A stretch of 64,000 bases of DNA from Eledone cirrhosa (taxonomy: Eukaryota), in assembly GCA_964016885.1 (NCBI GenBank), contig OZ024740.1:386818001-386882000 (forward strand), given 5' to 3'. The first letter of the stretch is position 1. Each line of letters opens with the position of its first letter. Position numbers and translations under genes: made by a program. Below the pieces are notes generated by a model. That model made no database searches. It was given only the letters and a program-made list of their open reading frames with translations, and was not told the origin of the DNA. Below are positions 1-57,195 of this stretch, piece by piece.

Positions 1-3000
1 AGTGATAGAAAGAGTAGAGAGAGAGAAGATAGCTCATTTAAGGTCAATAGGCTGGAGTGTATTGATGAGAGACTTCATATCAATCAATGGAGTGACGTTT
101 TGGTGGATATTGACTATGATGTTTATATGTTTAGCAGCAACACCATCCAAAAAGTGGGAGCAGTACACCATTTGTTGAGTCACACAAGCTGTGTAGAGTG
201 TTGCAGTTAATTGTTATGGGATGAATATTTTCTGGTCCTGAAGATGAAGGTCAGGTTTTGTGATGATCATTATTATATTGAAGTTGAAGGTGTGAGTTTA
301 CAAGAAGTTATCCTCAGTTATGGTGTGGCCTAGTATGTGCAGCAACATTTTGGTGTTGTTTATCCAATGGCATAGCTAGAGTTGGTGTCGTCCCCCAATG
401 CTGCCCCACCTTGCTTCACTTTTGCCTTCACAAAAAGCATAACCCAATATACAATGTAGAAGACCAAATGTGCTGGCTCTAAAATGAGTGCTGTCACGTG
501 TTGACCCCCACCTCACAGCTATATTACTATGTGCAGTACAGAAAAGTGTTTGGAGCTAGTGAGGACTTTTCTGTGTGCATGTATTTTTATTTTGTATGCT
601 TGTATTGAATGGTTTCAGGGCTGGATCAACAAAATATGTCCATACATAGGGCACCAAAAGAGGGGACGGTTACCACAGTTTTTTTTTCAACTGCTGGATT
701 TACCATAGTGCAAATGGTAAATTATATCGGTTTTTCAGAAAAGAAAAATGTTGAAAACTTCTGTGTTTGTATTATTGCTATCAACAGTGGTGGGTTGACA
801 GATTATTTATTCTGGCTCTTTATGTTTTAAGTTCAAATCGCACTGGGGTCAACTTCACCTTTTATTCTTTTGTGTTCGATAAAGTAAGGTACAGGGATCA
901 ATTTAGTCGACTCCCCCTCCCCACAAATTGCTGCTCTTGTGCCTATTTTAGAAACCGTTACTTATTGCTATTTAGTGTTAAATAAATAGGATGGCCTGGA
1001 AAAAAATCTGATTTTTTTTTTTAATTTCACAATCATTATCTATTGTCAGTTAGACAATGATAGAATTGAAGGTGCACTATCGCTAGGCTCTGCTTAGGGC
1101 ATTAGTTGACCTTAATCCGACCCTGTGTCAGAGTGCTAGGAAAGGGAGGGAGATCAATCATGAATCTAATGTACAACATTCTTGTTTTTTTTTCTGCTGG
1201 CCAAATGTTGAATCTGTGAGCGAGCTAAATATGTTAGGGTATCTTTTTGTCTTCTTTATTATCTCTGCTATATGTGTTGTGAGTATTGTAACTTTATTTT
1301 TAATCTTCAATGTGTCGAGGTGTGAGATGTATGGACCTGTAACCTCTGATGGAGTTGTATGGGTGCCGTTGTAATATACAGCATGTCTTGGGCATTTTTA
1401 AACCTGGACGACCCCATCTTCTCTCCAGGTCTGAACAGCCATTTTCTTCCAGAAAGGGTGAGAGAGGAAGTGAGAAAGATATATAGAGAAAGAATTGACC
1501 CCAATATCTGTCTGATAGTTTGTTTTATGATCTTGATAGGAGGAAAAGCAAAGAGTATGTTGTCTGACATTCTAATGACTTGACTGATTCTTCACCCTGG
1601 AGTGTGAGAAAGGGAAATGCAGTTTTGATTTTGCCTCTTTCTCAGCTGGCTTAACATGTTTCAGTGATATAGCAAGGTCTCTCAGTACTTGAAGAGAGGC
1701 ACACTTTTGGTACACCCAAACCACCTTAATTGACAGGTATGATACACTAGAGAAAATTTTGTGCCACACCCTCCATATATTTCACTCATTTTACGCTACA
1801 TAAGCTTTGAGGCTTATGTAGTATGAAATGAGTTCAACCAATAATTAAAACCATCTCATCTGTTTTGAACACTGTGATATATATAACTCAAGCAGATTTT
1901 CCCCCTTAGTCTTCCCCATTGGTTTGTTGTAATCATATGAACATCCTATAGAGGCTAGGCACAAATATATTTTTAGAGGGGAAATTTAGATGTGATATTC
2001 ATGGTTGACATAAGAAGATTGAAATCCTTTCAAACAAACATCAGTCTCAGTTCGCCAATTACATTTTATACAAAGCCCTGTATTATAGATGTAAAGCAGT
2101 AGAACAAAGGAAAACAGCAGATTGCCGTCATCCTTAGTAATGGGTAAAATTCCTAAACTAAAATTTAGTTTCATACTTTTATGGCCTGAGTTCAAATCCC
2201 ACTGCTCAACTTTGCCTTTCCTCTTTACGGAGTTGATAAAATTTCATGTCAGATATAGGGTTTATCTTATTGACTATACTCTATCCCATATGCGAGATTT
2301 TGATGTTATTTATTTTGAGAACAATACCTTAACATCAGTATGAATGGCCAGTTACAGCCAGTTTGAACAGAAAGAAGTGAGGGAATTCTGGCCAGATACG
2401 ACTGGTTTAAATGCTAAAAGGTTAAGGCCAGCTGCCTTATTTAAAATCAATATAGTGAAATAAAGCGGACACATCAGTCATGTATCAGAATATATAATGC
2501 TTTAGACAGGTTATTTTCCTTACTTTATTATTTTGTTAGCTTGTAAAGTCATGGAGTGAAGTAGAGCATCAAACTAAATGCCTCGAAGTATTTGAACAAG
2601 TTATTTTATATGTTATGCTCTATCAAATGGATAGCAGTAATATATTCAGGCTTATACCATAACAAATATGTGACCTGGTGAAAAATTATCATTTTTAGGG
2701 ATTATTTTTATCTATTTTCTTTTGGGGTTATTTATATCTACTAAGGCGGTGGATTAACAGAATTCTTTGAGCATTGGACAAAATGCCCTGTAGTATTTAG
2801 TAAGGTCCCTCTATGTTCTGAAACCAAATCCCACCAAAGTTAGTTTTACCTTTCATCTGTCTGCAAAATTTTCTCAGTGCCTCGGTAAGAAATCAATATT
2901 TATATCTGCATTACCTTTCATTTAGTTTGATCTCCTATCAAAACATTGTGGATGTAGATGTAAATATATATATTTATTTAATCCTTTCTTAAAAATTATA

Positions 3001-12050: not shown

Positions 12051-12469
12051 ATGCACTAGACAAAATATCTTGTGACATTTAGTTGAAATTGACTTTGCCT
12101 TTTATCCTTCCAAGGGTGATAATATTATGTACCAGTCAAATACTTGGGTCGATATGACCAGTAGTACCCAAACTTATTTTATCATAAAACGCGTATAGGT
12201 TTGTTTTTTTAAGCATGGAACCCATACCTATACTTTATGGACAATTCCCAAATTGAAACCAAATTTGTTTAAGAGAGTGAATTTATTTATACAATATATA
12301 TATATAATTATATGTATGTGTGTGTGTGTGTATATAAGCAAAGAGTTATTTAATTTGTTGGTTATTCAACAAATTTATTTATAACAGATTCGAAGCACTC
12401 TACAGGATTTTTCTGGAGTCTAATATCAATAATATTAATAAATGGAAACTATCTTTCTAAAACCATATT

Positions 12470-12530
12470 TATTTTATTATATATATTTCAAAGGTACCAA
12501 AATTTTGGTACGCTCTCATCAGATAAAATA
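12470..12530 (-). ncRNA. Minimal type-I hammerhead ribozyme motif, inverted partner of 12635-12695
   Basis: Same architecture on the minus strand; stem II GUACCAA-AAUU-UUGGUAC. Confidence 0.65.
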
Positions 12531-12634
12531 CAAAAGTTGTTTTATAAATAGTGACATATCTAAAAATTAAAACAGAACTTAAAACAAAAAGTTCTTGTTT
12601 TTTGGATATGTCACTATTTATAAAACAACTTTTG

Positions 12635-12695
12635 TATTTTATCTGATGAGGGTGAACCAAAATGTTGGTACCCTTGAAATATATATAATAAAATA
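12635..12695 (+). ncRNA. Minimal type-I hammerhead ribozyme motif
   Basis: UAUUUUAU-CUGAUGA-stem II-GAAA-U-AUAU-A-UA-AUAAAAUA. Perfect 8-bp stem I; the base of stem II is imperfect. Confidence 0.65.
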
Positions 12696-12753
12696 AATAT
12701 GGTTTTAGAAAGATAGTTTCTATTTATTAATATTATTGATATATATATATATA

Positions 12754-14242
12754 TCATCATCATCATCATCATCATCGTTTAGCGTCCGTGTTCCACACTT
12801 GCATGGGTTTGGACGGGGGTTTTCCACTTGAGGCAAGAGTGATTGTCTTGCTCGCATAGGACTGTCTGGCGGGTTTTCTACAGCTGGATGCCCTTCCTAA
12901 CACCAACCACATTTACAGTGTGGGGCTGGGAGGTTTTTACCGTGTTGCCTACATGGCCACATTACAGCATGGACTGTCTGGCGGGTTTTCTACAGCTGGA
13001 TGCCCTTCCTAACACCAACCACATTTACAGTGTAGGGCTGGGAGGTTTTTACCGTGTTGCCTACACGGCCACATTTACAGCGTGGACTGTGTGTTTTTTT
13101 GTCGTGACACCTACACGATCTCATTTGTTTCGGCCTCGATGGCGCGGGCACCAACATAACTTTACATTGAAAGGGGCGGTGTGGATGGGGTGGAGGTGGT
13201 GGGACGGGGGGGGGGGGGGGGGGGGGGGGGGGGTGATAGAGATGCCTACTGGCTGTAGTAGGTTTTTACTTTGTATTTAGGTAAGGCGGGTCTTCTCTAT
13301 TACTGAGTACCGCCAAAGGTCTCGGTCCAGTGACATTGTCTTGGAGAGGTGTAAGCGTGTGAGGTCGGAGTTTATCAGCTCATCCCAGGTTTTTCTGGGT
13401 CTGCCTACTCTGTGGCTACCGTCTATCTTTATTGCCCTGCACTTTGTTATACAGCTGTTGTCTTTCATGCGCATCACGTGACCAAAACAACGTAGCCTTC
13501 TCTCGAGTAAACAACATCTGATCCCTCTTATTTCTAATTTTTTCCTTAGTTCGTTTATGCTTTGCCGTTCACGTATATTACTATTGCACATCCAGCAGAG
13601 CATGCAAGCTTCGTTCCTCTCTAGTCTGCGTATATCCTCTGCACACAATGCCCAGGTCTGACTGCGATGCAGCATTGCTGTTCGTATGCAGGCATCGTAT
13701 AACCTGCCTTTCATTTTTAGGGAGAACCCTCTAGCGGCTAATAGTGGTATAAGCTCTCTGAACTTTTTCCATCCAGTTCTGACTCTAGCTACTGTACTTT
13801 CAGAGCACCCTCCCCCACTGCTGATTTTGTCACCCAGGTAACGGAAGCTGTCCACTATTTCTATAGAACCCTCTGCGCAGTTGAAGGAGCTAGTATTTTG
13901 TGGGCACTTGCTGCTACTTATTGCACCAGAGCACCGGCTACATGTAAAATCTATGTTCTTAGTTAGCTTACCTGTGATCCCACTACATCTTTTATGCACC
14001 CATACTTTGCATTTGGGACATAAAATGGAGTTTCTACCTACGCCTTTCCTACACACTGAGCATGGCCATTTCCCAGAAGGGACCGCCGCCTTTTTTTCTT
14101 TCCTACAAACTAGAACTTTAGTCTTAGCCAGGTTAATTTTAAGGCCTTTTGATTCTAGGCCGTGCTTCCATGTTTGGAATTTCTTCTCTAGTTCGGTCAT
14201 TGATTCAGCTATGAGCGTTAGATCATCTGCGTATAGGAGTTC
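12754..14242 (-). mobile_element. RTE subfamily A, 3' part (YADD to tail)
   Basis: ORF 13277-14260 (ELLYADD...KTRLT). (CAT)n at 12754 on the + strand. About 110 bp of the 3' UTR is tandemly duplicated. Confidence 0.95.
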
Positions 14243-14375
14243 GTACATACATACATACACCGGCAGCCGGTGTATGTATGTATGTCATTCAGCGCATCGG
14301 TAGGGGTTCTCCTACATGGATATAAAGTAGTGGCCATACTCGAAAACGAGTTGGCAGCCACCATGTATGTATACA

Positions 14376-20120: not shown

Positions 20121-22667
20121 CTAGAGGAACAGTGGGAATTCCTGAAAGCAAACCTGCTGACGGCAGCAGACGAAGTCTGTGGCTGGAACAGGCCTGTAGG
20201 TAGGTTGAGAGTAACATGGTGGTGGAACAGTAAGGTGGAGGAGTCAATTAAGGCCAAAAAGCAGGCTTGGAAAGTATGGCGGGATGGGGGAAGTAGAGAA
20301 GACTATCAAGTGGCCAGGAGGGAAGCTAGGAGACAAGTGTACTTCGCAAGAAGAGAAGCAGAGGAAAGAAAGTTCAAGCATGTTCTACAACGTGAGGACC
20401 AAAAACGTGAGGTGTTCAGGATTGCCAGGCAATGTGTCAAGGAAAACCGTGATATTGTCGGGGAGAAGTGTGTACTTAATGATGATGGTGTACTTGCCAT
20501 CACTGACGCTGATAAGAAGGTAGCTTGGAAGTGTCACTACGAAAGGCTACTAAATGAGGAGAATAAATGGGAGAAAGACAGTCTCCCCCACATCAACCCA
20601 ATAGAGAGACCGACAGTGTTAGTCGAAGTTAGTATAATAAGTAAGGCAATCAAAGATATGAAGTTGGGTAAGGCGGCTGGGCCTTCGGAAATAGTTGCTG
20701 AGATGCTGAAAGCCTCTGGAACGGTGGGACACACCATGGTCACGCGGATAGTAAACCAAGTCATACAGAATGGGGTTGTTCCGAAGGACTGGCGTAGCAG
20801 CATCATCATTAACTGTTACAAGGGTAAAGGAGATGCCCTAGATAGGAGTAACTATAGAGGCATTAAATTAATCGACCAGGTCATGAAGGTCACGGAAAAA
20901 GTTATAGCGCAACTAATCAGAGAGAGAATTGATCTAGATGAAATGCAGTTCGGTTTTGTGTCAGGCAAAAGTACCACAGACGCTCTTTTCATTGTACGAC
21001 AACTACAGAAGTAACTAGCTAAAAGTAAACCCCTATACTTAGCTTTTGTTGACTTGGAGAAAGCCTTCGACAGAGTCCCCCGTTCCATTATCTGGTGGGC
21101 TCTTAGAAAACTAGGTGTTGACGAATGGCTTGTGAGAGCTATACAAGCCATGTATAAAGAAACAGTCAGCAAGGTTAGAATTAACAACGAATATAGTGAA
21201 GAGTTTAGCGTAAAAGTTGGTGTACATCAGGGCTCTGTTCTTAGCCCCCTACTATTTATTATTGCCCTTCAGGCTATAACAGTGGAGTTCAAGACCGGCT
21301 GCCCATGGGAACTCCTATACGCAGATGATCTAACGCTCATAGCTGAATCAATGGCCGAGCTAGAGAAGAAATTCCAAACATGGAAGCACGGCCTAGAATC
21401 AAAAGGGCTTAAAATTAACCTGGCTAAGACTAAAGTTCTAGTTTGTAGGAAAGAAAATAAGGCGACGGTCCCTTCGGGGAAATGGCCATGCTCAGTGTGT
21501 AGGAAAGGCGTAGATACAAACTCCATTTTATGTCCCAAATGCAAAGTATGGGTGCATAAAAGATGTAGTGGGATCACAGGTAAGCTAACTAAGAACATAG
21601 ATTTTACATGTAGCCGGTGCTCTGGTGCAATAAGTAGCAGCAAGTGCCCACAAAATACTAGCTCTTTCAATTGCGCAGAGGGTTCTATAGAAATAGTGGA
21701 CAGCTTCCGTTACCTGGGTGACAAAATCAGCAGAGGGGGAGGGTGCTCTGAAAGTACAGTAGCTAGAGTCAGAACTGGATGGAAAAAGTTCAGAGAGCTT
21801 ATACCACTATTAGCCACTAAAGGGTTCTCCCTAAAAATGAAAGGCAGGTTGTATGATGCCTGCATACGAAGAGCAATGTTGCATGGCAGTGAGACCTGGG
21901 CATTGTGTGCAGAGGATATACGCAGACTAGAGAGGAACGAAGCTTGCATGCTCTGCTGGATGTGTAATAGTAACATATGTGAACGGCAAAGCATAAGCGA
22001 ACTAAGGAAAAAATTAGAAATAAGAGGGATCAGATGTTGTTTACTCGAGAGAAGACTACGTTGGTATGGTCACGTGATGCGCATGAAAGACGACAGCTGT
22101 ATAACAAAGTGCAGGGCAATAAAGATAGATGGTAGCTACGGAGTAGGCAGACCCAGAAAAACCTGGGACGAGCTGATAAATTCCGACTTCACACACTTAC
22201 ACCTCTCCAAGACAATGTCACTGGACCGAGACCTTTGGCGGTACACAGTAATAGCGAAGACCCGCCTTACCTAAATACAAAGTAAAACCTACTACAGTCA
22301 GTAGGCATCTCTAACAAAATACACCCCCGTCACACCACCCCCACCCCATCCACACCGCCCCTTTCAATGTAAAGTTATGTTGGTGCCACAACATCCAGGC
22401 CGAAACAAATGAGATCGTGTAGGTGTCACGACAAAAAAACACACAGTCCACGCTGTAATGTGGCCGTGTAGGCAACACGGTAAAAACCTCCCAGCCCCAC
22501 ACTGTAAATGTGGTTGGTGTTAGGAAGGGCATCCAGCTGTAGAAAACCCGCCAGACAGTCCTATGCGAGTAAGACAATCACTTTTGCCTCAAGTGGGAAA
22601 ACCCCCGTCCAAACCCATGCAAGCGTGGAACACAGACGTTAAACGATGATGATGATGATGATGATGA
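20121..22667 (+). mobile_element. 5'-truncated RTE LINE, subfamily A
   Basis: ORFs 20052-21014 and 21054-22274 are in the same frame, separated by a stop. (GAT)n tail. Confidence 0.95.
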
Positions 22668-27908: not shown

Positions 27909-28593
27909 AGCACACAAATAAACACATATCTTCAGTCTCAATAGAAAATCTGAACTCTGACACCTGAACTCTGACAGCTAGCCATATTCACTGAACCAGA
28001 ACATTTCTCCCAATCCCTTTTCCCTTGACCACTATCTCTCCATCGTCATAACATTCACTATAGACTACAGAATAGTTTTCCAAATAAGGGCGCAAAAATG
28101 TAATGAAAACTTGTTCACGTGACAGCCAAATTTCATTTATAACCAACCAAAAAAAAGCCTTCGTGAGCCTCATTTTTTCAAGTAAAAAGAAATTCAAACA
28201 CTCATATATGAAAAAACAACCTGTGACAACCCCCCCCCCCCCCCCTCTCTTATTTGAAGAACTATTGTAACGCGAACTGGCGCGAAATTTATTATAATTA
28301 TTGACAAACCAATCAAATTACTTCTCGAAAAACTTGGTTTTCGAGCCAGTTTTTCCATATAAAACAAGTAACATTTAGAGACCAACCAGATGTGAGAAAA
28401 ACCACAGACCCTCCATCTCAACTCACCTTTTGAAAAGCAGAAGAACTGCGAAACCGGTAAAGGAATCAAATAAATATATATATTTTTAAAAAAATAAGAC
28501 TTCAGTTGCATTTTCGATTTCATCCCTTTTTCTTTATACTTCCACTCGTGTAGGACACCTCGGTTATTTTTCATTTTGTAAAAAAAACCTCAC

Positions 28594-28640
<47 letters not shown>

Positions 28641-28645
28641 AATAC

Positions 28646-28765
<120 letters not shown>

Positions 28766-30108
28766 CGACCTGACACTCATAGCGGAATCAATGGCCGAGC
28801 TAGAGAAGAAATTCCAAACATGGAAGCACGGCCTAGAGTCAAAAGAACTTAAAATTAACCTGGCTAAGACCAAAGTTCTAGTTTGTAGGAAAGAAAACAA
28901 GGCGGCGGTCCCTTCTGGGAAATGGTCGTGCTCGGTATGTAGGAAAGGCGTAGGTAGAAACTCCATCTTATGTCCTAAATGCAAAGTATGGGTGCATAAA
29001 AGATGTAGTGGGATCACAGGTAAGCTAACTAAGAACATAGACTTTACATGTGGCCGGTGTTCTGGTGCAATAAGTAGCAGCAAGTGCCCACAAAATACTA
29101 GCTCTTTCAATTGCGCAGAGGGTTCTATAGAAATAGTGGACAGCTTCCGTTACCTGGGCGATAAAATCAGCAGTGGGGGAGGGTGCTCTGAAAGTACTGT
29201 AGCTAGAGTCAGAACTGGTTGGAAAAAGTTCAGAGAGCTTATACCACTATTAGCTGCTAAAGGGTTCTCCCTAAAAATGAAAGGCAGGTTGTACGATGCC
29301 TGCATACGAACAGCAATGCTGCATGGCAGTGAGACCTGGGCATTGTGTGCAGAGGATATACGCAGACTAGAGAGGAACGAAGCTTGCATGCTCCGCTGGA
29401 TGTGTAACAGTAATATACGTGAACGGCAAAGCATAAACGAACTAAGGAAAAAATTAGAGATAAGAGGGATCAGATGTTGTTTACTCGAGAGAAGGCTACG
29501 TTGGTATGGACACGTGATGCGCATGAAAGTCGATAGCTGTATAACAAAGTGCAGGGCAATAAAGATAGACGGTAGTCACGGAATAGGCAGACCTAGAAAA
29601 ACCTGGGACGAGCTGATAAACTCCGACATCACACATTTACACCTCTCCAAGACAATGTCACTGGACCGAGACCTTTGGCGGTACTCAGTAACAGAGAAGA
29701 CCCGCCTTACCTAAATATATAGTAAAACCTACTCCAGCCAGTAGGCATCTCTAACAAAATACACCCCGTCCCACCACCACCACCCCCACCCCATCCACAC
29801 CACCCCGTTCTATGTAAAGTTATGTTGGTGCCGCGCCATCCAGGCCGAAACAAATGAGATCGTGTAGGTGTCACGACAAAAAAACACACAGTCCACGCTG
29901 TAATGTGGCCGTGTAGGCAACACGGTAAAAACCTCCCAGACCCACACTGTAAATGTGGTTGGTGTTAGGAAGGGCATCCAACTGTAGAAAACCTGCCAGA
30001 CAGTCCTATGCGAGCAAGGCAATCACTCTTGCTTCAAGTGGGACTACCCCCGTCCAAACCCATGCAAGCGTGGAACACGGACGTTAAACGATGATGATGA
30101 TGATGATG

Positions 30109-36770: not shown

Positions 36771-36836
36771 TACACACATATATATATATATAAATGTATA
36801 TATAAAATAGGAAAATTTTCGCTCTACATAGCTGAA

Positions 36837-37260
36837 TACAATAAATGAAATCTAAGTTTTTCGAATATTAATATTAACATTTGATTCGTTTGCAATTATG
36901 CAAACAAACCATTTTTATAGCCATGTCAGTAGAATGAACTCTTCATTCTTGCTCTTGTGTTGGCATGTAAACAGAACTGCAGACACTAATGTTTCTGGGT
37001 ATCACCCTTCATCAGTACAGCTCACTGTTCACCTGCTAACTGTCAGAGCTAGTGAAATATACAGTGATTGATCAGCCTGATTTGCATATTAGCAGACTGG
37101 CTGATCAGTCAGATCTGCATATTAGCAGACCCACTGATGATACCCAGAAACATTAGTTCATTCTACTAACATGGCTATAAAAATGAGGCTTGTTTGCATA
37201 ATTGCAAACAAATCGAATGTTATTATTAATATTCGAAAAACTCAGATTACATTTAATGTA
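36837..37260. repeat. Inverted repeat containing one intact and one deleted hammerhead motif
   Basis: Arms share tttttcgaatattaat...gccatg..agtagaatgaact and actaatgtttctgggtatca. Confidence 0.85.
36972..37027 (-). ncRNA. Type-I hammerhead ribozyme motif
   Basis: GAGCUGUA-CUGAUGA-A-GGGU-GAU-ACCC-A-GAAA-CA-UUAG-UG-UC-UGCAGUUC; GUC cleavage triplet. Confidence 0.7.
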
Positions 37261-37432
37261 TATATACATATATATATAAATGTATATATACAATATATAT
37301 ATATATATACACACACACACACGCATATATATATATGTATATATAGATTTATATTTATATATATATGTATATATATATACACATATATATATATATATAT
37401 ATTATATATGTATATATATACACACATATATA

Positions 37433-53897: not shown

Positions 53898-56800
53898 TTT
53901 TTTTTTAATGACCATGCTGTAAAATGGAGGGGTAGAGAGGGCCCTTGAGTCTAGTAAGACATCCTCTCTAGTGCTGGTGGCACAAATAAAAGCACCCAGT
54001 CCATGCTGTAAAGTGGCGCTGGTGTTAGGAAGGGCATCCAACCAGTGTATCAATGCCAAAAAGCTTATCAGCACAGCAACAAAACAGCATAGAAAAATAT
54101 GAAGACGTCGCATCTCAGAGTTGCAACACTTAATGTTGGCACTCTCGGAGGTAGGTCTGCTGAAATAGCGGAGATGCTGGAGAGAAGGCAGGTGGATGTG
54201 TGCTGCGTGCAAGAGGTGAGATGGAGGGGTGCCTCTGCGAGACTAGTCGTAGGCAAGCGTCTTAGCTATAAGCTATTCTGGGTAGGTAAGGATGATGGGT
54301 TAGGGGGAGTAGGCATTTTCCTGGCTGAGAAATGGATCAATAAGACAATAGAGGTAGTTCGAGTTAGTAATCGAATAATTAAGCTTAGATTAGTTGTAGG
54401 TAGGAGACTACTGACAATCATCTCGGTCTATGCTCCCCAAGCAGGCCTAGGCAAAGATGAGAAAGACTGCTTTTATGAGCAACTTTTGCAAACAACCACA
54501 ATGACAGAGGACGGAGACATCGTTATGCTAGCAGGAGACTTCAATGGTCATGTTGGACAGCTCCAGGATGGTTACACTGGGGTACATGGTGGGCACGGTT
54601 ACGGTTCAAGAAATGAAGAAGGAGTGAGACTTCTTGAATTTTGTGATGCAAGTACATTGACTATTTGCAACACAAACTTCCAGAAACCTGCCAATCACCT
54701 AATAACCTACAAATCTGGTGAGCACATAAGCCAGATTGACTTCCTGCTAGTTAGGCAGCGGGACAGGCAGATAGTGTCTAATACCAAGGCATACCCTGGG
54801 GAAGAATGTACCCCACAGCATAGGTTAGTTGTTAGTGATATCTCAGTAAGCAAGAGATGGAATGAGACATATAGGAAGGTGTGGAGAAGAAAGGTCTGGA
54901 AGCTAAAAGACCTTTCACTAAAATTCAAATTTAGGAAAGCCCTTCAAGATGTATATGACGAAAAAGAAGACGATTTAGAGACGTATGACATAGATAATAA
55001 CTGGAAGTTCTTACGTCACAACTTGCTGAAGGCTACTGATGAAACCTGTGGCTGGAGCAGAGCTCCAACCAGACAGAGAGTGACCTGGTGGTGGAACAGC
55101 AGTGTAGATAAGGCTATTAGAGACAAAAGACTAGCATGGAAGGCTTGGAATAAGGGTGGGAGTAGGGAAGAATATACAGCCACTAAGAGAGAAGCTAGAC
55201 GTCAGGTGTACTTAGCACGCAGGGAGGCAGAGAGTAGGAGGTTTGCCAATGTTCTGCGACGGGAAGATCAGAGGCGTGCGGTGTTCCACATTGCAAGGCA
55301 GTGTGTCAATGCAAATCAGGATGTTGTTGGTGATAAATGTGTCCGGGATGATGCCGGTGTACTTAGTGTCACGAATGACCAGAAAAAGGAGGCCTGGAAA
55401 TGTCATTATGAGAGACTGATGAATGTGGAGAACGAATGGGAGAGAGAGAAATTACCCTTGGTAGATCCGACAGAGGGACCAGCTATTGAGATTGACGAAT
55501 ATAGGGTCCAAGAGGCGATTAGGGAAATGAAAAATGGTAAGGCGGCCGGACCATCGGGAATAGTTGCTGAGATGCTGAAGGCATCAGGGGACGTAGGCAC
55601 TAAACTGGTTGCACGCATAATCAATCATGCTATATATGGTGGTGTCATACCCAAAGACTGGTGCAGCAGTATTCTCATAAATTGCTACAAAGGTAAAGGG
55701 GATGCTTTGGAGAGGAGCAATTATAGGGGTATAAAACTGATAGATCAGGTTATGAAAGTGGCAGAAAGGATTCTAGCACAACTAATTAGAGAAAGGGTCA
55801 AACTAGATGAGATGCAGTTTGGTTTTGTGCCTGGGAAGAGTACAACAGATGCCCTCTTCTTGGTGAGACAAATGCAAGAGAGGTTCTTAGAGAAGAATAA
55901 GCCACTATACTTAGCCTTTGTTGACCTAGAGAAGGCCTTTGATAGGGTACCCCGATCTGTCATCTGGTGGTCCCTAAGGAAGCTGGGTGTTGAGGAATGG
56001 CTTGTAAGGACAGTGCAAACTTTGTACAGAGGTACTCTCAGTAAAGTCAGGGTAGGAATGGAGTTTAGTGAGGAATTCCAGATACAAGTAGGAGTACATC
56101 AGGGTTCGGTCCTCAGCCCGCTCTTGTTCATTATAGTCCTCCAAGCCATAACAGAGGAGTTTAAGACTGGCTGTCCATGGGAACTTCTCTATGCTGACGA
56201 TCTGGCTCTTATGGCAGAATCAGTAGAGGAGCTAGAGAATAAATTCCGGCTATGGAAACAGCAGTTGGAAGCAAGAGGACTGAGAGTAAATCTAGCTAAG
56301 ACAAAAGTGTTGATGAGTAGAAAAGAGGACAAAACCCTGATTCCGTCAGGGAAATGGCCATGTTCGATATGCAGAAAAGGAACTGGCATAAATTCTATAA
56401 AATGCACACAATGTAGGTCCTGGGTACACAAGAGATGTAGCGGGATAGCAGGCAAACTAACAGGTAGGGAGAAATATGTATGCAGTAGATGTACAGGGAA
56501 ATTAGACAGTAGAAGTCGCACTGATAGACACATTTTTCAAATGCGAGAGGGCGCTATAGAAGTGGTGGATAGCTTCCGGTACCTAGGAGATCAGATTAGC
56601 ATGGGAGGAGGGTGTTCCGAGGCCATAGTATCTAGAATAAGGACGGGTTGGAAGAAGTTTAGGGAGCTGCTTCCTCTGTTGACGAAGAAGGGTTTCTCCC
56701 TGCGTACGAAAGGCCGGTTGTATGATGCCTGTGTGAGGAGCGCGATGCTGCATGGTAGTGAGACATGGGCAGCTACCGCAGAAGATATGCGACGGCTGGA

Positions 56801-57195
56801 GAGAAATGAGGCAAGCATGCTCCGTTGGATGTGCAGTGTAAATGTGCGTGAACGACCCAGCATAAATGTGTTGAGAGAGAAACTGTGTCTGAGAGGGATA
56901 GTATGTAGTGTACGGGAGAGGAGACTGAGGTGGTATGGACATGTGATGCGCATGGAGGATGACCGATGGGTGAAGAAGTGCCAGGAAATGCCAGTTGAAG
57001 GAAGACGTGGTAGAGGTAGACCACGAAAAACATGGGCGGAGGTGGTGAGAACAGACCTCAGATCATTGAAGCTCACGGTGGAGATGACGAGGGACCGTGA
57101 CGAGTGGAGAGATGCTGTGCTGAATAAGACCCGTCCCACCCTTGCAAGCAGGGAAAAGCGGACGTAAAATGATGATGATGATGATGATGATGATG
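53898..57195 (+). mobile_element. Full-length-ORF RTE LINE (subfamily C) in CLNS1A intron 2, sense orientation
   Basis: Single ORF, 3' stem-loop and (GAT)n tail at 57170-57195. The 5' boundary is approximate and no TSD was found. Confidence 0.9.
54099..57167 (+). CDS. RTE-clade non-LTR retrotransposon ORF: APE endonuclease plus reverse transcriptase, with a PHD-like insert; uninterrupted 1022 aa
   Basis: APE motifs TLNVGTL, QEVRW, SVYAP, GDFNGH, QIDF, PQH. RT motifs NYRGIKL, DLEKAFD, QGSVLSP, YADD, FRYLG. RTE C-terminus RLRWYGHV...GRPRKTW. Confidence 0.97.
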   Translation: MKTSHLRVATLNVGTLGGRSAEIAEMLERRQVDVCCVQEVRWRGASARLVVGKRLSYKLFWVGKDDGLGGVGIFLAEKWINKTIEVVRVSNRIIKLRLVVGRRLLTIISVYAPQAGLGKDEKDCFYEQLLQTTTMTEDGDIVMLAGDFNGHVGQLQDGYTGVHGGHGYGSRNEEGVRLLEFCDASTLTICNTNFQKPANHLITYKSGEHISQIDFLLVRQRDRQIVSNTKAYPGEECTPQHRLVVSDISVSKRWNETYRKVWRRKVWKLKDLSLKFKFRKALQDVYDEKEDDLETYDIDNNWKFLRHNLLKATDETCGWSRAPTRQRVTWWWNSSVDKAIRDKRLAWKAWNKGGSREEYTATKREARRQVYLARREAESRRFANVLRREDQRRAVFHIARQCVNANQDVVGDKCVRDDAGVLSVTNDQKKEAWKCHYERLMNVENEWEREKLPLVDPTEGPAIEIDEYRVQEAIREMKNGKAAGPSGIVAEMLKASGDVGTKLVARIINHAIYGGVIPKDWCSSILINCYKGKGDALERSNYRGIKLIDQVMKVAERILAQLIRERVKLDEMQFGFVPGKSTTDALFLVRQMQERFLEKNKPLYLAFVDLEKAFDRVPRSVIWWSLRKLGVEEWLVRTVQTLYRGTLSKVRVGMEFSEEFQIQVGVHQGSVLSPLLFIIVLQAITEEFKTGCPWELLYADDLALMAESVEELENKFRLWKQQLEARGLRVNLAKTKVLMSRKEDKTLIPSGKWPCSICRKGTGINSIKCTQCRSWVHKRCSGIAGKLTGREKYVCSRCTGKLDSRSRTDRHIFQMREGAIEVVDSFRYLGDQISMGGGCSEAIVSRIRTGWKKFRELLPLLTKKGFSLRTKGRLYDACVRSAMLHGSETWAATAEDMRRLERNEASMLRWMCSVNVRERPSINVLREKLCLRGIVCSVRERRLRWYGHVMRMEDDRWVKKCQEMPVEGRRGRGRPRKTWAEVVRTDLRSLKLTVEMTRDRDEWRDAVLNKTRPTLASREKRT

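What the first reader, a model, noticed from the sequence alone, without database searches (positions are those of the whole stretch)
12423..12742. Inverted dimer of minimal hammerhead ribozymes inside a 320-bp palindrome
Seen: each arm has the full hammerhead core (CUGAUGA, GAAA, UH), a perfect 8-bp stem I and a tiny stem III with a palindromic AUAU loop; one copy lies on each strand, pointing outwards. Established: minimal type-I hammerheads with palindromic loop III occur in Penelope-like element (PLE) terminal repeats and retrozymes and can cleave as dimers. Inference: a protein-free PLE/retrozyme-like unit that could self-cleave whichever strand is transcribed. The stem II base has decayed, consistent with CpG loss, so this copy may be inactive.
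Basis: partly seen in the sequence, partly recalled or inferred. Interest (0 to 1): 0.75.

Follow-up and report, generated by a model that had tools for sequence, protein, structure and literature searches.

The report
Back-to-back Penelope retrotransposon ends with hammerheads
The mirror-image stretch with a hammerhead ribozyme motif on each strand is real, but it is an ordinary, very common stump of a Penelope-type jumping gene: two short copies of the element's end sit back to back, were likely made in one insertion, and are predicted to pair with each other as RNA and so block self-cutting.

Summary
The palindrome and both hammerhead cores are confirmed. The unit is larger than reported: 12336-12747, junction 12566|12567. 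It is two 5'-truncated copies of the terminal repeat (pLTR) of a high-copy Penelope-like element (PLE). A 31-mer from it has 4,190 exact genomic matches. Of 20 loci picked by their reverse-transcriptase sequence, 15 carry this hammerhead in sense downstream of the ORF. The ORF has the motifs defining the Hydra clade. Outward-facing pairs are common: 32 of 68 sampled loci, 29 with the 83-nt tail on one arm only, as here. Opposite-strand hammerhead pairs and single tails are in print. Not supported: a functional dimer (each strand has one sense copy; the ribozyme fold costs 63-68 kcal/mol inside the hairpin); CpG decay (U11.1 is the family state: 4,190 TG, 23 CG, 0 CA); a separate protein-free element. 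Likely origin: two cDNAs primed from both nicked strands of a (TA)n target. The scan noted the same kind of structure before, on other DNA. No cleavage or expression was tested.

The parts
12336..12566 (-). Left arm: 5'-truncated pLTR copy with tail; from 44 nt upstream of hammerhead C3 to the long 3' end (+187)
   Evidence: blastn to family copies L052, L075
12336..12418 (-). Tail (about 83 nt, +105 to +187), present on this arm only; in ORF-linked copies it lies just upstream of the start codon
12470..12530 (-). Type-I minimal hammerhead motif, left arm (C3 12522, G12 12489, H17 12478); core intact, one rare stem II change
12567..12747 (+). Right arm: 5'-truncated pLTR copy without tail; from 76 nt upstream of C3 to the short 3' end (+104), which merges into (TA)n
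12571..12595 (+). Small hairpin belonging to the family sequence (GAACTT/AAGTTC); gives the false palindrome centre and lies at the cluster of 5' ends
   Evidence: sequence
12635..12695 (+). Type-I minimal hammerhead motif, right arm (C3 12643, G12 12676, H17 12687); core intact, stem II changes at 12653 and 12655
12281..12335 (.). (TA)n/(GT)n microsatellite, left side of the insertion target
   Evidence: sequence
12748..12777 (.). (TA)n then (CAT)n, right side of the target; an unrelated repeat follows
   Evidence: sequence

Best explanation
This is a pair of short, 5'-truncated ends of a hammerhead-bearing Penelope-like retrotransposon of the Hydra type, set back to back in a (TA)n tract, likely by one insertion in which both cut DNA strands primed reverse transcription of the element's RNA. 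Shown: family identity, linkage to the ORF, two fixed 3' ends 83 nt apart, one of each per pair, and shared rare alleles between the arms. Inferred: the element's endonuclease nicks both strands of (TA)n; one strand primes at the long start site and the other at the short one; each cDNA stops early, often about 75 nt upstream of the hammerhead; the two cDNA ends are joined head to head. The hammerhead is carried along as part of the terminal repeat. In the parent element it likely works as a dimer between two same-sense repeats through the palindromic stem III. In this palindrome it is predicted to be shut off by arm-to-arm pairing.
For: Family: 51 matches from 40 scored of 1,824 candidates, full-length hits 90-97% identical; 4,190 exact 31-mer matches, reversed control 0, shared among sibling subfamilies. 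Linkage: 15 of 20 RT-anchored loci have the hammerhead in sense 2.5-4.3 kb downstream of the RT anchor, 19 of 20 somewhere in 9 kb, 8 of 20 an inverted one upstream. ORF motifs match the Hydra definition. Architecture: 32 of 68 loci are outward pairs; 29 of 32 have one tail (binomial p 1.3e-6 against 0.5); 105 of 113 arms end at +100..105 or +176..187. Among those 29, by my count, the tail-less arm reaches further 5' in 16, the tailed arm in 9, 4 tie, so neither arm is simply a copy of the other. Arms of a pair share rare alleles: 24 against 1.3 for shuffled partners (maximum 6 in 1,000); identity 95.3% against 92.6%; the window's arms share an allele seen in no other of 91 arms. Ribozyme fold costs 63-68 kcal/mol in the palindrome against 6-8 alone. 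In vitro, another PLE cuts and extends both strands and starts at two sites that bound the tail (PMC11167929).
Against: The joining step is inferred from genomic ends only. Gene conversion between arms would also give shared alleles. No intact ORF was seen: all 20 RT-anchored copies and L037 are broken, and Pfam and PDB sequence searches did not name the RT or the endonuclease, so the clade call rests on motifs compared by eye and on unnamed homologs, not on a tree. Here the two end sites lie upstream of the start codon and 83 nt apart, whereas in the tested Poseidon element they lie inside the ORF and tails are 30-40 bp. Three of 32 pairs do not fit (2 without tail, 1 with two). Folding energies ignore tertiary contacts and proteins.
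Confidence: 0.85

Rival explanations
1. Same element, but the mirror arose by fold-back self-priming of one cDNA or of an antisense template at the small internal hairpin, the reading proposed for rotifer Penelope elements.
For: Arms share rare alleles. 28 of 113 arm 5' ends lie at -70 to -79, next to the family's own hairpin. PMC3846280 (passages) interprets head-to-head junction palindromes as self-priming.
Against: A fold-back copy of the tailed arm cannot reach further 5' than its template, yet the tail-less arm is longer in 16 of 29 pairs and in the window; a copy of the tail-less arm cannot gain the tail. Self-priming on a longer antisense RNA is not excluded by this.
Confidence: 0.08
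2. A separate protein-free, retrozyme- or MITE-like palindromic element that is mobilised as a unit and self-cleaves from either strand.
For: Short ORF-less copies dominate: only 7 of 113 arms reach 240 nt upstream. Cores are intact in both arms. Retrozymes are reported to derive from PLE terminal repeats (10.64898/2026.07.22.740005, abstract, introduction and start of methods).
Against: Junctions differ from pair to pair, so each palindrome was built anew. No head-to-tail tandem array. The sequence is continuous with an ORF-bearing element. The hairpin is predicted to block cleavage.
Confidence: 0.04
3. Two independent insertions into the same (TA)n tract, or a later inverted duplication or assembly artefact.
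For: The family targets (TA)n and is abundant. No contig of three public runs spanned the junction (a hole proves nothing).
Against: One-tail rule in 29 of 32 pairs, always outward, mostly with no target DNA between arms; shared rare alleles; arms differ at 7 of 144 sites and have different ends, unlike a mirrored assembly.
Confidence: 0.03

Closest known systems
Hydra clade of C-terminal EN+ Penelope-like elements, including Hydra-1_Obim (Craig et al. 2021, PMC8557442)
   Same: RW[RK], DKT, CxCx5C linker, CxxC..E..N..CxH, no cysteine pair inside GIY-YIG, (TA)n targets, hammerhead near the 3' end; the Hydra-1_Obim hammerhead listed in File S2 also has U before GAAA.
   Different: A different family: hammerhead and protein sequences differ from Hydra-1_Obim by eye. 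Unit about 4 kb with a 3' UTR of over 1 kb against under 3 kb; clear pLTR and tail, where Hydra-1_Obim is listed with no pLTR.
Inverted 5'-truncated pLTR insertions with an optional tail (PMC3846280; PMC8557442 Fig. 2 legend)
   Same: Head-to-head inverted pLTRs, tail on one of the two ends.
   Different: Here both arms are truncated so early that no ORF remains; the tail is 83 nt, not 30-40 bp.
Minimal hammerheads of metazoan PLEs (Cervera and de la Pena 2014, PMC4209133)
   Same: Type I, long stem II, palindromic stem III, mostly dispersed; the paper reports dual motifs 100-700 bp apart on opposite strands.
   Different: Stem I is 8 bp (4-5 bp there); 11.1 is U, not the conserved G10.1-C11.1 pair; stem II has an internal mismatch.
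Non-LTR retrozymes (10.64898/2026.07.22.740005)
   Same: Short, non-coding, type-I hammerhead, PLE-related.
   Different: Retrozymes are head-to-tail tandem units with same-sense ribozymes; this is an inverted pair tied to an ORF-bearing family.

Membership tests
Type-I hammerhead ribozyme | Core C3 U4 G5 A6 N7 G8 A9, G12 A13 A14 A15, U16 H17 | tested here: met
   Both arms; across 126 copies mean column conservation 0.97-0.99 in the core, 0.84 in stem II, 0.81 upstream, 0.92 downstream (part of the sample was selected by a pattern covering GAAA to stem I)
Type-I hammerhead ribozyme | Stems I, II, III can form and are kept across families | tested here: met
   174 motif copies (selected for at least 6 of 8 stem I pairs): unrelated stem II sequences still fold; stem III/loop TATATA in 137, TGCGCA in 8 (both palindromes), TATGTA in 14; common stem I variants are G-U wobbles
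Type-I hammerhead ribozyme | G10.1-C11.1 closing pair | tested here: not met
   U at 11.1 in 159 of 174; 4,190 against 23. A-U or G-U can close the stem; PMC3088659 (passages) reports a natural U-U start of stem II, so this lowers expected activity, not membership
Type-I hammerhead ribozyme | Self-cleavage | not testable with these tools
   No assay. No clear pile-up of genomic 5' ends at the site: 7 of 113 at +37..42, confounded by (TA)n similarity
Double (dimeric) hammerhead | Two same-sense ribozymes in one RNA or paired in trans | tested here: not met
   One sense copy per strand at this locus. Two sense copies could form it: -26.4 kcal/mol against -13.8 for two monomer active folds, but still above the best misfold at -32.4
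EN+ Penelope-like element | pLTR linked to one ORF with RT and GIY-YIG-type endonuclease | tested here: met
   met for the family, the window copy has no ORF. Pfam did not name the domains
EN+ Penelope-like element | Partial tandem or inverted insertions with a tail on one end | tested here: met
Hydra clade | RWK-like motif and DKT in place of DKG | tested here: met
   LRWRA and KSDKTNN, against the definition
Hydra clade | CxCx5C linker; CxxC and CxH around E and N; no CCHH | tested here: met
   CNCRNELNC; VYKC..YIG with one Cys; CQLCIEE..INKK..CKH
Hydra clade | Insertion into (TA)n | tested here: met
   Most 3' ends run into (TA)n
Hydra clade | RT phylogeny with reference Hydra families | not tested
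   No tree; reference sequences seen only as passages of the supplement
Non-LTR retrozyme | Head-to-tail tandem units each with a hammerhead | tested here: not met
   Window and sampled loci show single or inverted copies

The most novel reading that the evidence does not exclude
The many short palindromes of this family are a natural record of two-ended priming by a Penelope-like element: both nicked strands of (TA)n prime on the same RNA at two fixed sites 83 nt apart in the 5' UTR, and the cDNAs are joined head to head. Either arm can be the longer one, which argues against the published self-priming reading and gives a direct in-genome test of how PLE inverted ends and tails form.
Probability: 0.55. 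Interest if true: 0.45.

Novelty: new member of a known kind. Interest (0 to 1): 0.17.

Why it matters
As a locus it matters little: it is one of probably many hundreds of such stumps. The family is useful as material. Its two sharp 3' ends, the one-tail rule and the shared alleles between arms speak to an open point in PLE biology, how inverted ends and tails are made, and match in vitro results from a distant Poseidon element. It also shows Hydra-type PLEs with U11.1 hammerheads to be abundant in this genome.

Tried and rejected
Rfam scan: no hammerhead model hit. Pfam on 5 and then 4 ORF pieces and a PDB sequence search on one: nothing informative. Homolog search gave 788 relatives, almost all unnamed. 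The tandem hits on contig C1706 are a 7.5-kb segmental repeat holding several fragments, not an element array. The endonuclease ORF first seen in L040 belongs to a sister family (61%, own hammerhead), so it was not used as linkage evidence. CpG decay rejected. Cleavage-defined 5' ends: no clear peak. ADAR-type A-to-G excess, a lead from note e1-9574549: not seen among rare substitutions, 5.7 against 8.5 per 1,000 for T-to-C. RNA data: no RNA holder listed; the three runs laid are contigs of unrecorded kind and say nothing on expression. Scripts had faults (no rows; one overlong row) and were replaced. Literature searches: 'octopus' + 'hammerhead ribozyme' gave only Craig et al. as relevant; Penelope + inverted + twin priming + tail gave one unrelated review; subscription papers are not covered, so absence from print is not established. 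Search of earlier findings by sequence was blank. No structure or complex prediction was run.

Full report
Observation. The sequence and a self-alignment confirm an inverted repeat over 12423-12742 with a hammerhead core on each strand, pointing outwards. On the + strand C3 is 12643, G12 12676 and H17 12687; on the - strand 12522, 12489 and 12478. Stem I is a perfect 8-bp A-U helix. Stem III is two pairs on an AUAU loop, and A15.1 to U16.1 reads AUAUAUAU, a palindrome. The arms are 95.1% identical over 144 nt. Rfam gives no hammerhead hit.

Host. The window lies in a 3.0-Gb animal genome rich in (TA)n and LINEs. That it is an octopus is inference from these traits, a homolog named from Argonauta and earlier notes.

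It is a repeat family. One arm drew 1,824 candidates, of which 40 were scored. A 31-mer covering the 3' half of the ribozyme has 4,190 exact matches, reversed control 0; sibling subfamilies share it. Mapped on longer copies, the left arm runs from 44 nt upstream of C3 to a 3' end at +187 (window 12336). The right arm runs from -76 to +104 (about 12747). The junction is 12566|12567.

It is the end of a Penelope-like element. L037 holds a broken ORF between two inverted copies of this repeat. Starting instead from the RT sequence (3,533 candidates), I took the next 20 best loci. 15 of 20 have this hammerhead in sense 2.5-4.3 kb downstream of the anchor, 19 of 20 have it within the 9 kb fetched, 8 of 20 have an inverted copy upstream and 7 of 20 a sense copy upstream, one of those from a sister family. 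In L051 the upstream repeat and tail are followed about 50 nt later by the start codon. The protein shows LRWRA, KSDKTNN, an RT core with YRDD, CNCRNELNC, VYKC..YIGAT, and CxLCxE..N..CxH. These match the definition of the Hydra clade in PMC8557442 (section 11 read whole; other passages; supplement passages). Hydra-1_Obim in that supplement is another family of the clade. Against: Pfam and PDB did not name the domains, no intact ORF was seen and no tree was built.

The ribozyme motif is under selection in the lineage. Over 126 copies the core columns are 0.97-0.99 conserved, against 0.84 for stem II, 0.81 upstream and 0.92 downstream; part of that sample was chosen by a pattern over the 3' half, but CUGAUGA and the 5' strand of stem I were not. 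Among 174 motif copies, families with unrelated stem II sequences keep the same core and stem I, and the stem III palindrome changes from TATATA to TGCGCA. U11.1 is the family state: 4,190 TG, 23 CG, 0 CA. Decay of methylated CpG after insertion would give TG and CA alike (established knowledge). The window's cores are intact; the right arm has stem II changes at 12653 and 12655, the left arm one.

The palindrome is not a working dimer. A double hammerhead needs two same-sense copies (PMC4209133, parts 1-2 of 4 read). Here each strand has one, and its antisense is transcribed first. Forcing the ribozyme fold costs 62.6-68.2 kcal/mol in the palindromic RNA against 6.3-8.3 in an isolated arm. 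Two same-sense copies would gain about 12.6 kcal/mol by dimerising, though the predicted best fold is still inactive. That paper found low activity for such motifs and already reports dual motifs 100-700 bp apart on opposite strands. In the one PLE tested with its protein, cleavage needed the protein and was not needed for insertion (PMC11167929, parts 1-2 of 4 read).

How the mirror forms. From a pattern downstream of the cleavage site (623 matches) I examined 68 distinct loci on contig C1 (70 fetched, 2 duplicates dropped). 32 are outward pairs; 29 of these have the tail on exactly one arm, 2 on neither, 1 on both (p 1.3e-6). A first sample gave 13 pairs in 26 loci by eye. Of 113 arms, 60 end at +100..105 and 45 at +176..187. 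Up to 11 of the 36 other loci carry an inverted stub of the opposite end type, two of them only a few bases. In the 29 pairs the tail-less arm reaches further 5' in 16, the tailed arm in 9, with 4 ties; several junctions are ambiguous because of internal hairpins. Neither arm can therefore be a plain copy of the other. Yet in 26 pairs with enough overlap the arms share 24 rare alleles against 1.3 for shuffled partners. The simplest reading is two cDNAs from one template, primed from both nicked strands at two start sites. This fits the in vitro finding that a PLE protein cuts and extends both strands and starts at two sites bounding the tail. It is inferred, not shown. Gene conversion could add to allele sharing, and PMC3846280 (passages) prefers self-priming on an antisense template. 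28 of 113 5' ends lie at -70 to -79, which may be the RNA start or a stop at the hairpin.

Verdict. A real but ordinary insertion stump of a Hydra-type PLE family that I could not match to a named family in the one source checked. The arrangement is described in print, and the scan has met it before (consulted after my own tests; unchecked notes, not counted as support). Other papers were seen only as search listings, apart from PMC13282606 and PMC3088659 (passages) and the 2026 retrozyme preprint (part 1 of 5; its supplements are closed and might list octopus families). Interest 0.17.

Noticed in passing
window 36800-37300, hammerhead C3 at 37015 (- strand): A second, unrelated high-copy hammerhead family (1,876 candidates) with a short stem II followed by an extra A before GAAA and a GUC site; it also has an inverted stub beside it and sits in (TA)n.
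   Followed up: partly
window 54093-57167 (+); fragments at 13277-14284, 21015-22274, 28554-29714: LINE family with endonuclease, RT and a PHD-finger hit just after the RT; one 1,024-aa stop-free frame.
   Followed up: no
L036, L037, L054, L055, L087, L104, L113, L169 and others: A sister hammerhead family with the same stem I and core, a longer stem II and a TGCGCA palindrome in stem III. Link to an ORF not checked.
   Followed up: partly
L040:1997-4165 (- strand): Sister Hydra-type element: endonuclease ORF followed about 1.2 kb later by a hammerhead with C before GAAA.
   Followed up: partly
L057, L058, L067, L037: A common short repeat has inserted at or near the TATATA of the hammerhead in several copies.
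   Followed up: no
G000:C1706 (L032-L035): A 7.5-kb unit repeated in tandem that holds several nested fragments of these families.
   Followed up: partly
L039:1-957 (+): A 318-aa frame that looks by eye like a rhodopsin-type G-protein-coupled receptor, next to an inverted pair of this family; no family search run.
   Followed up: no
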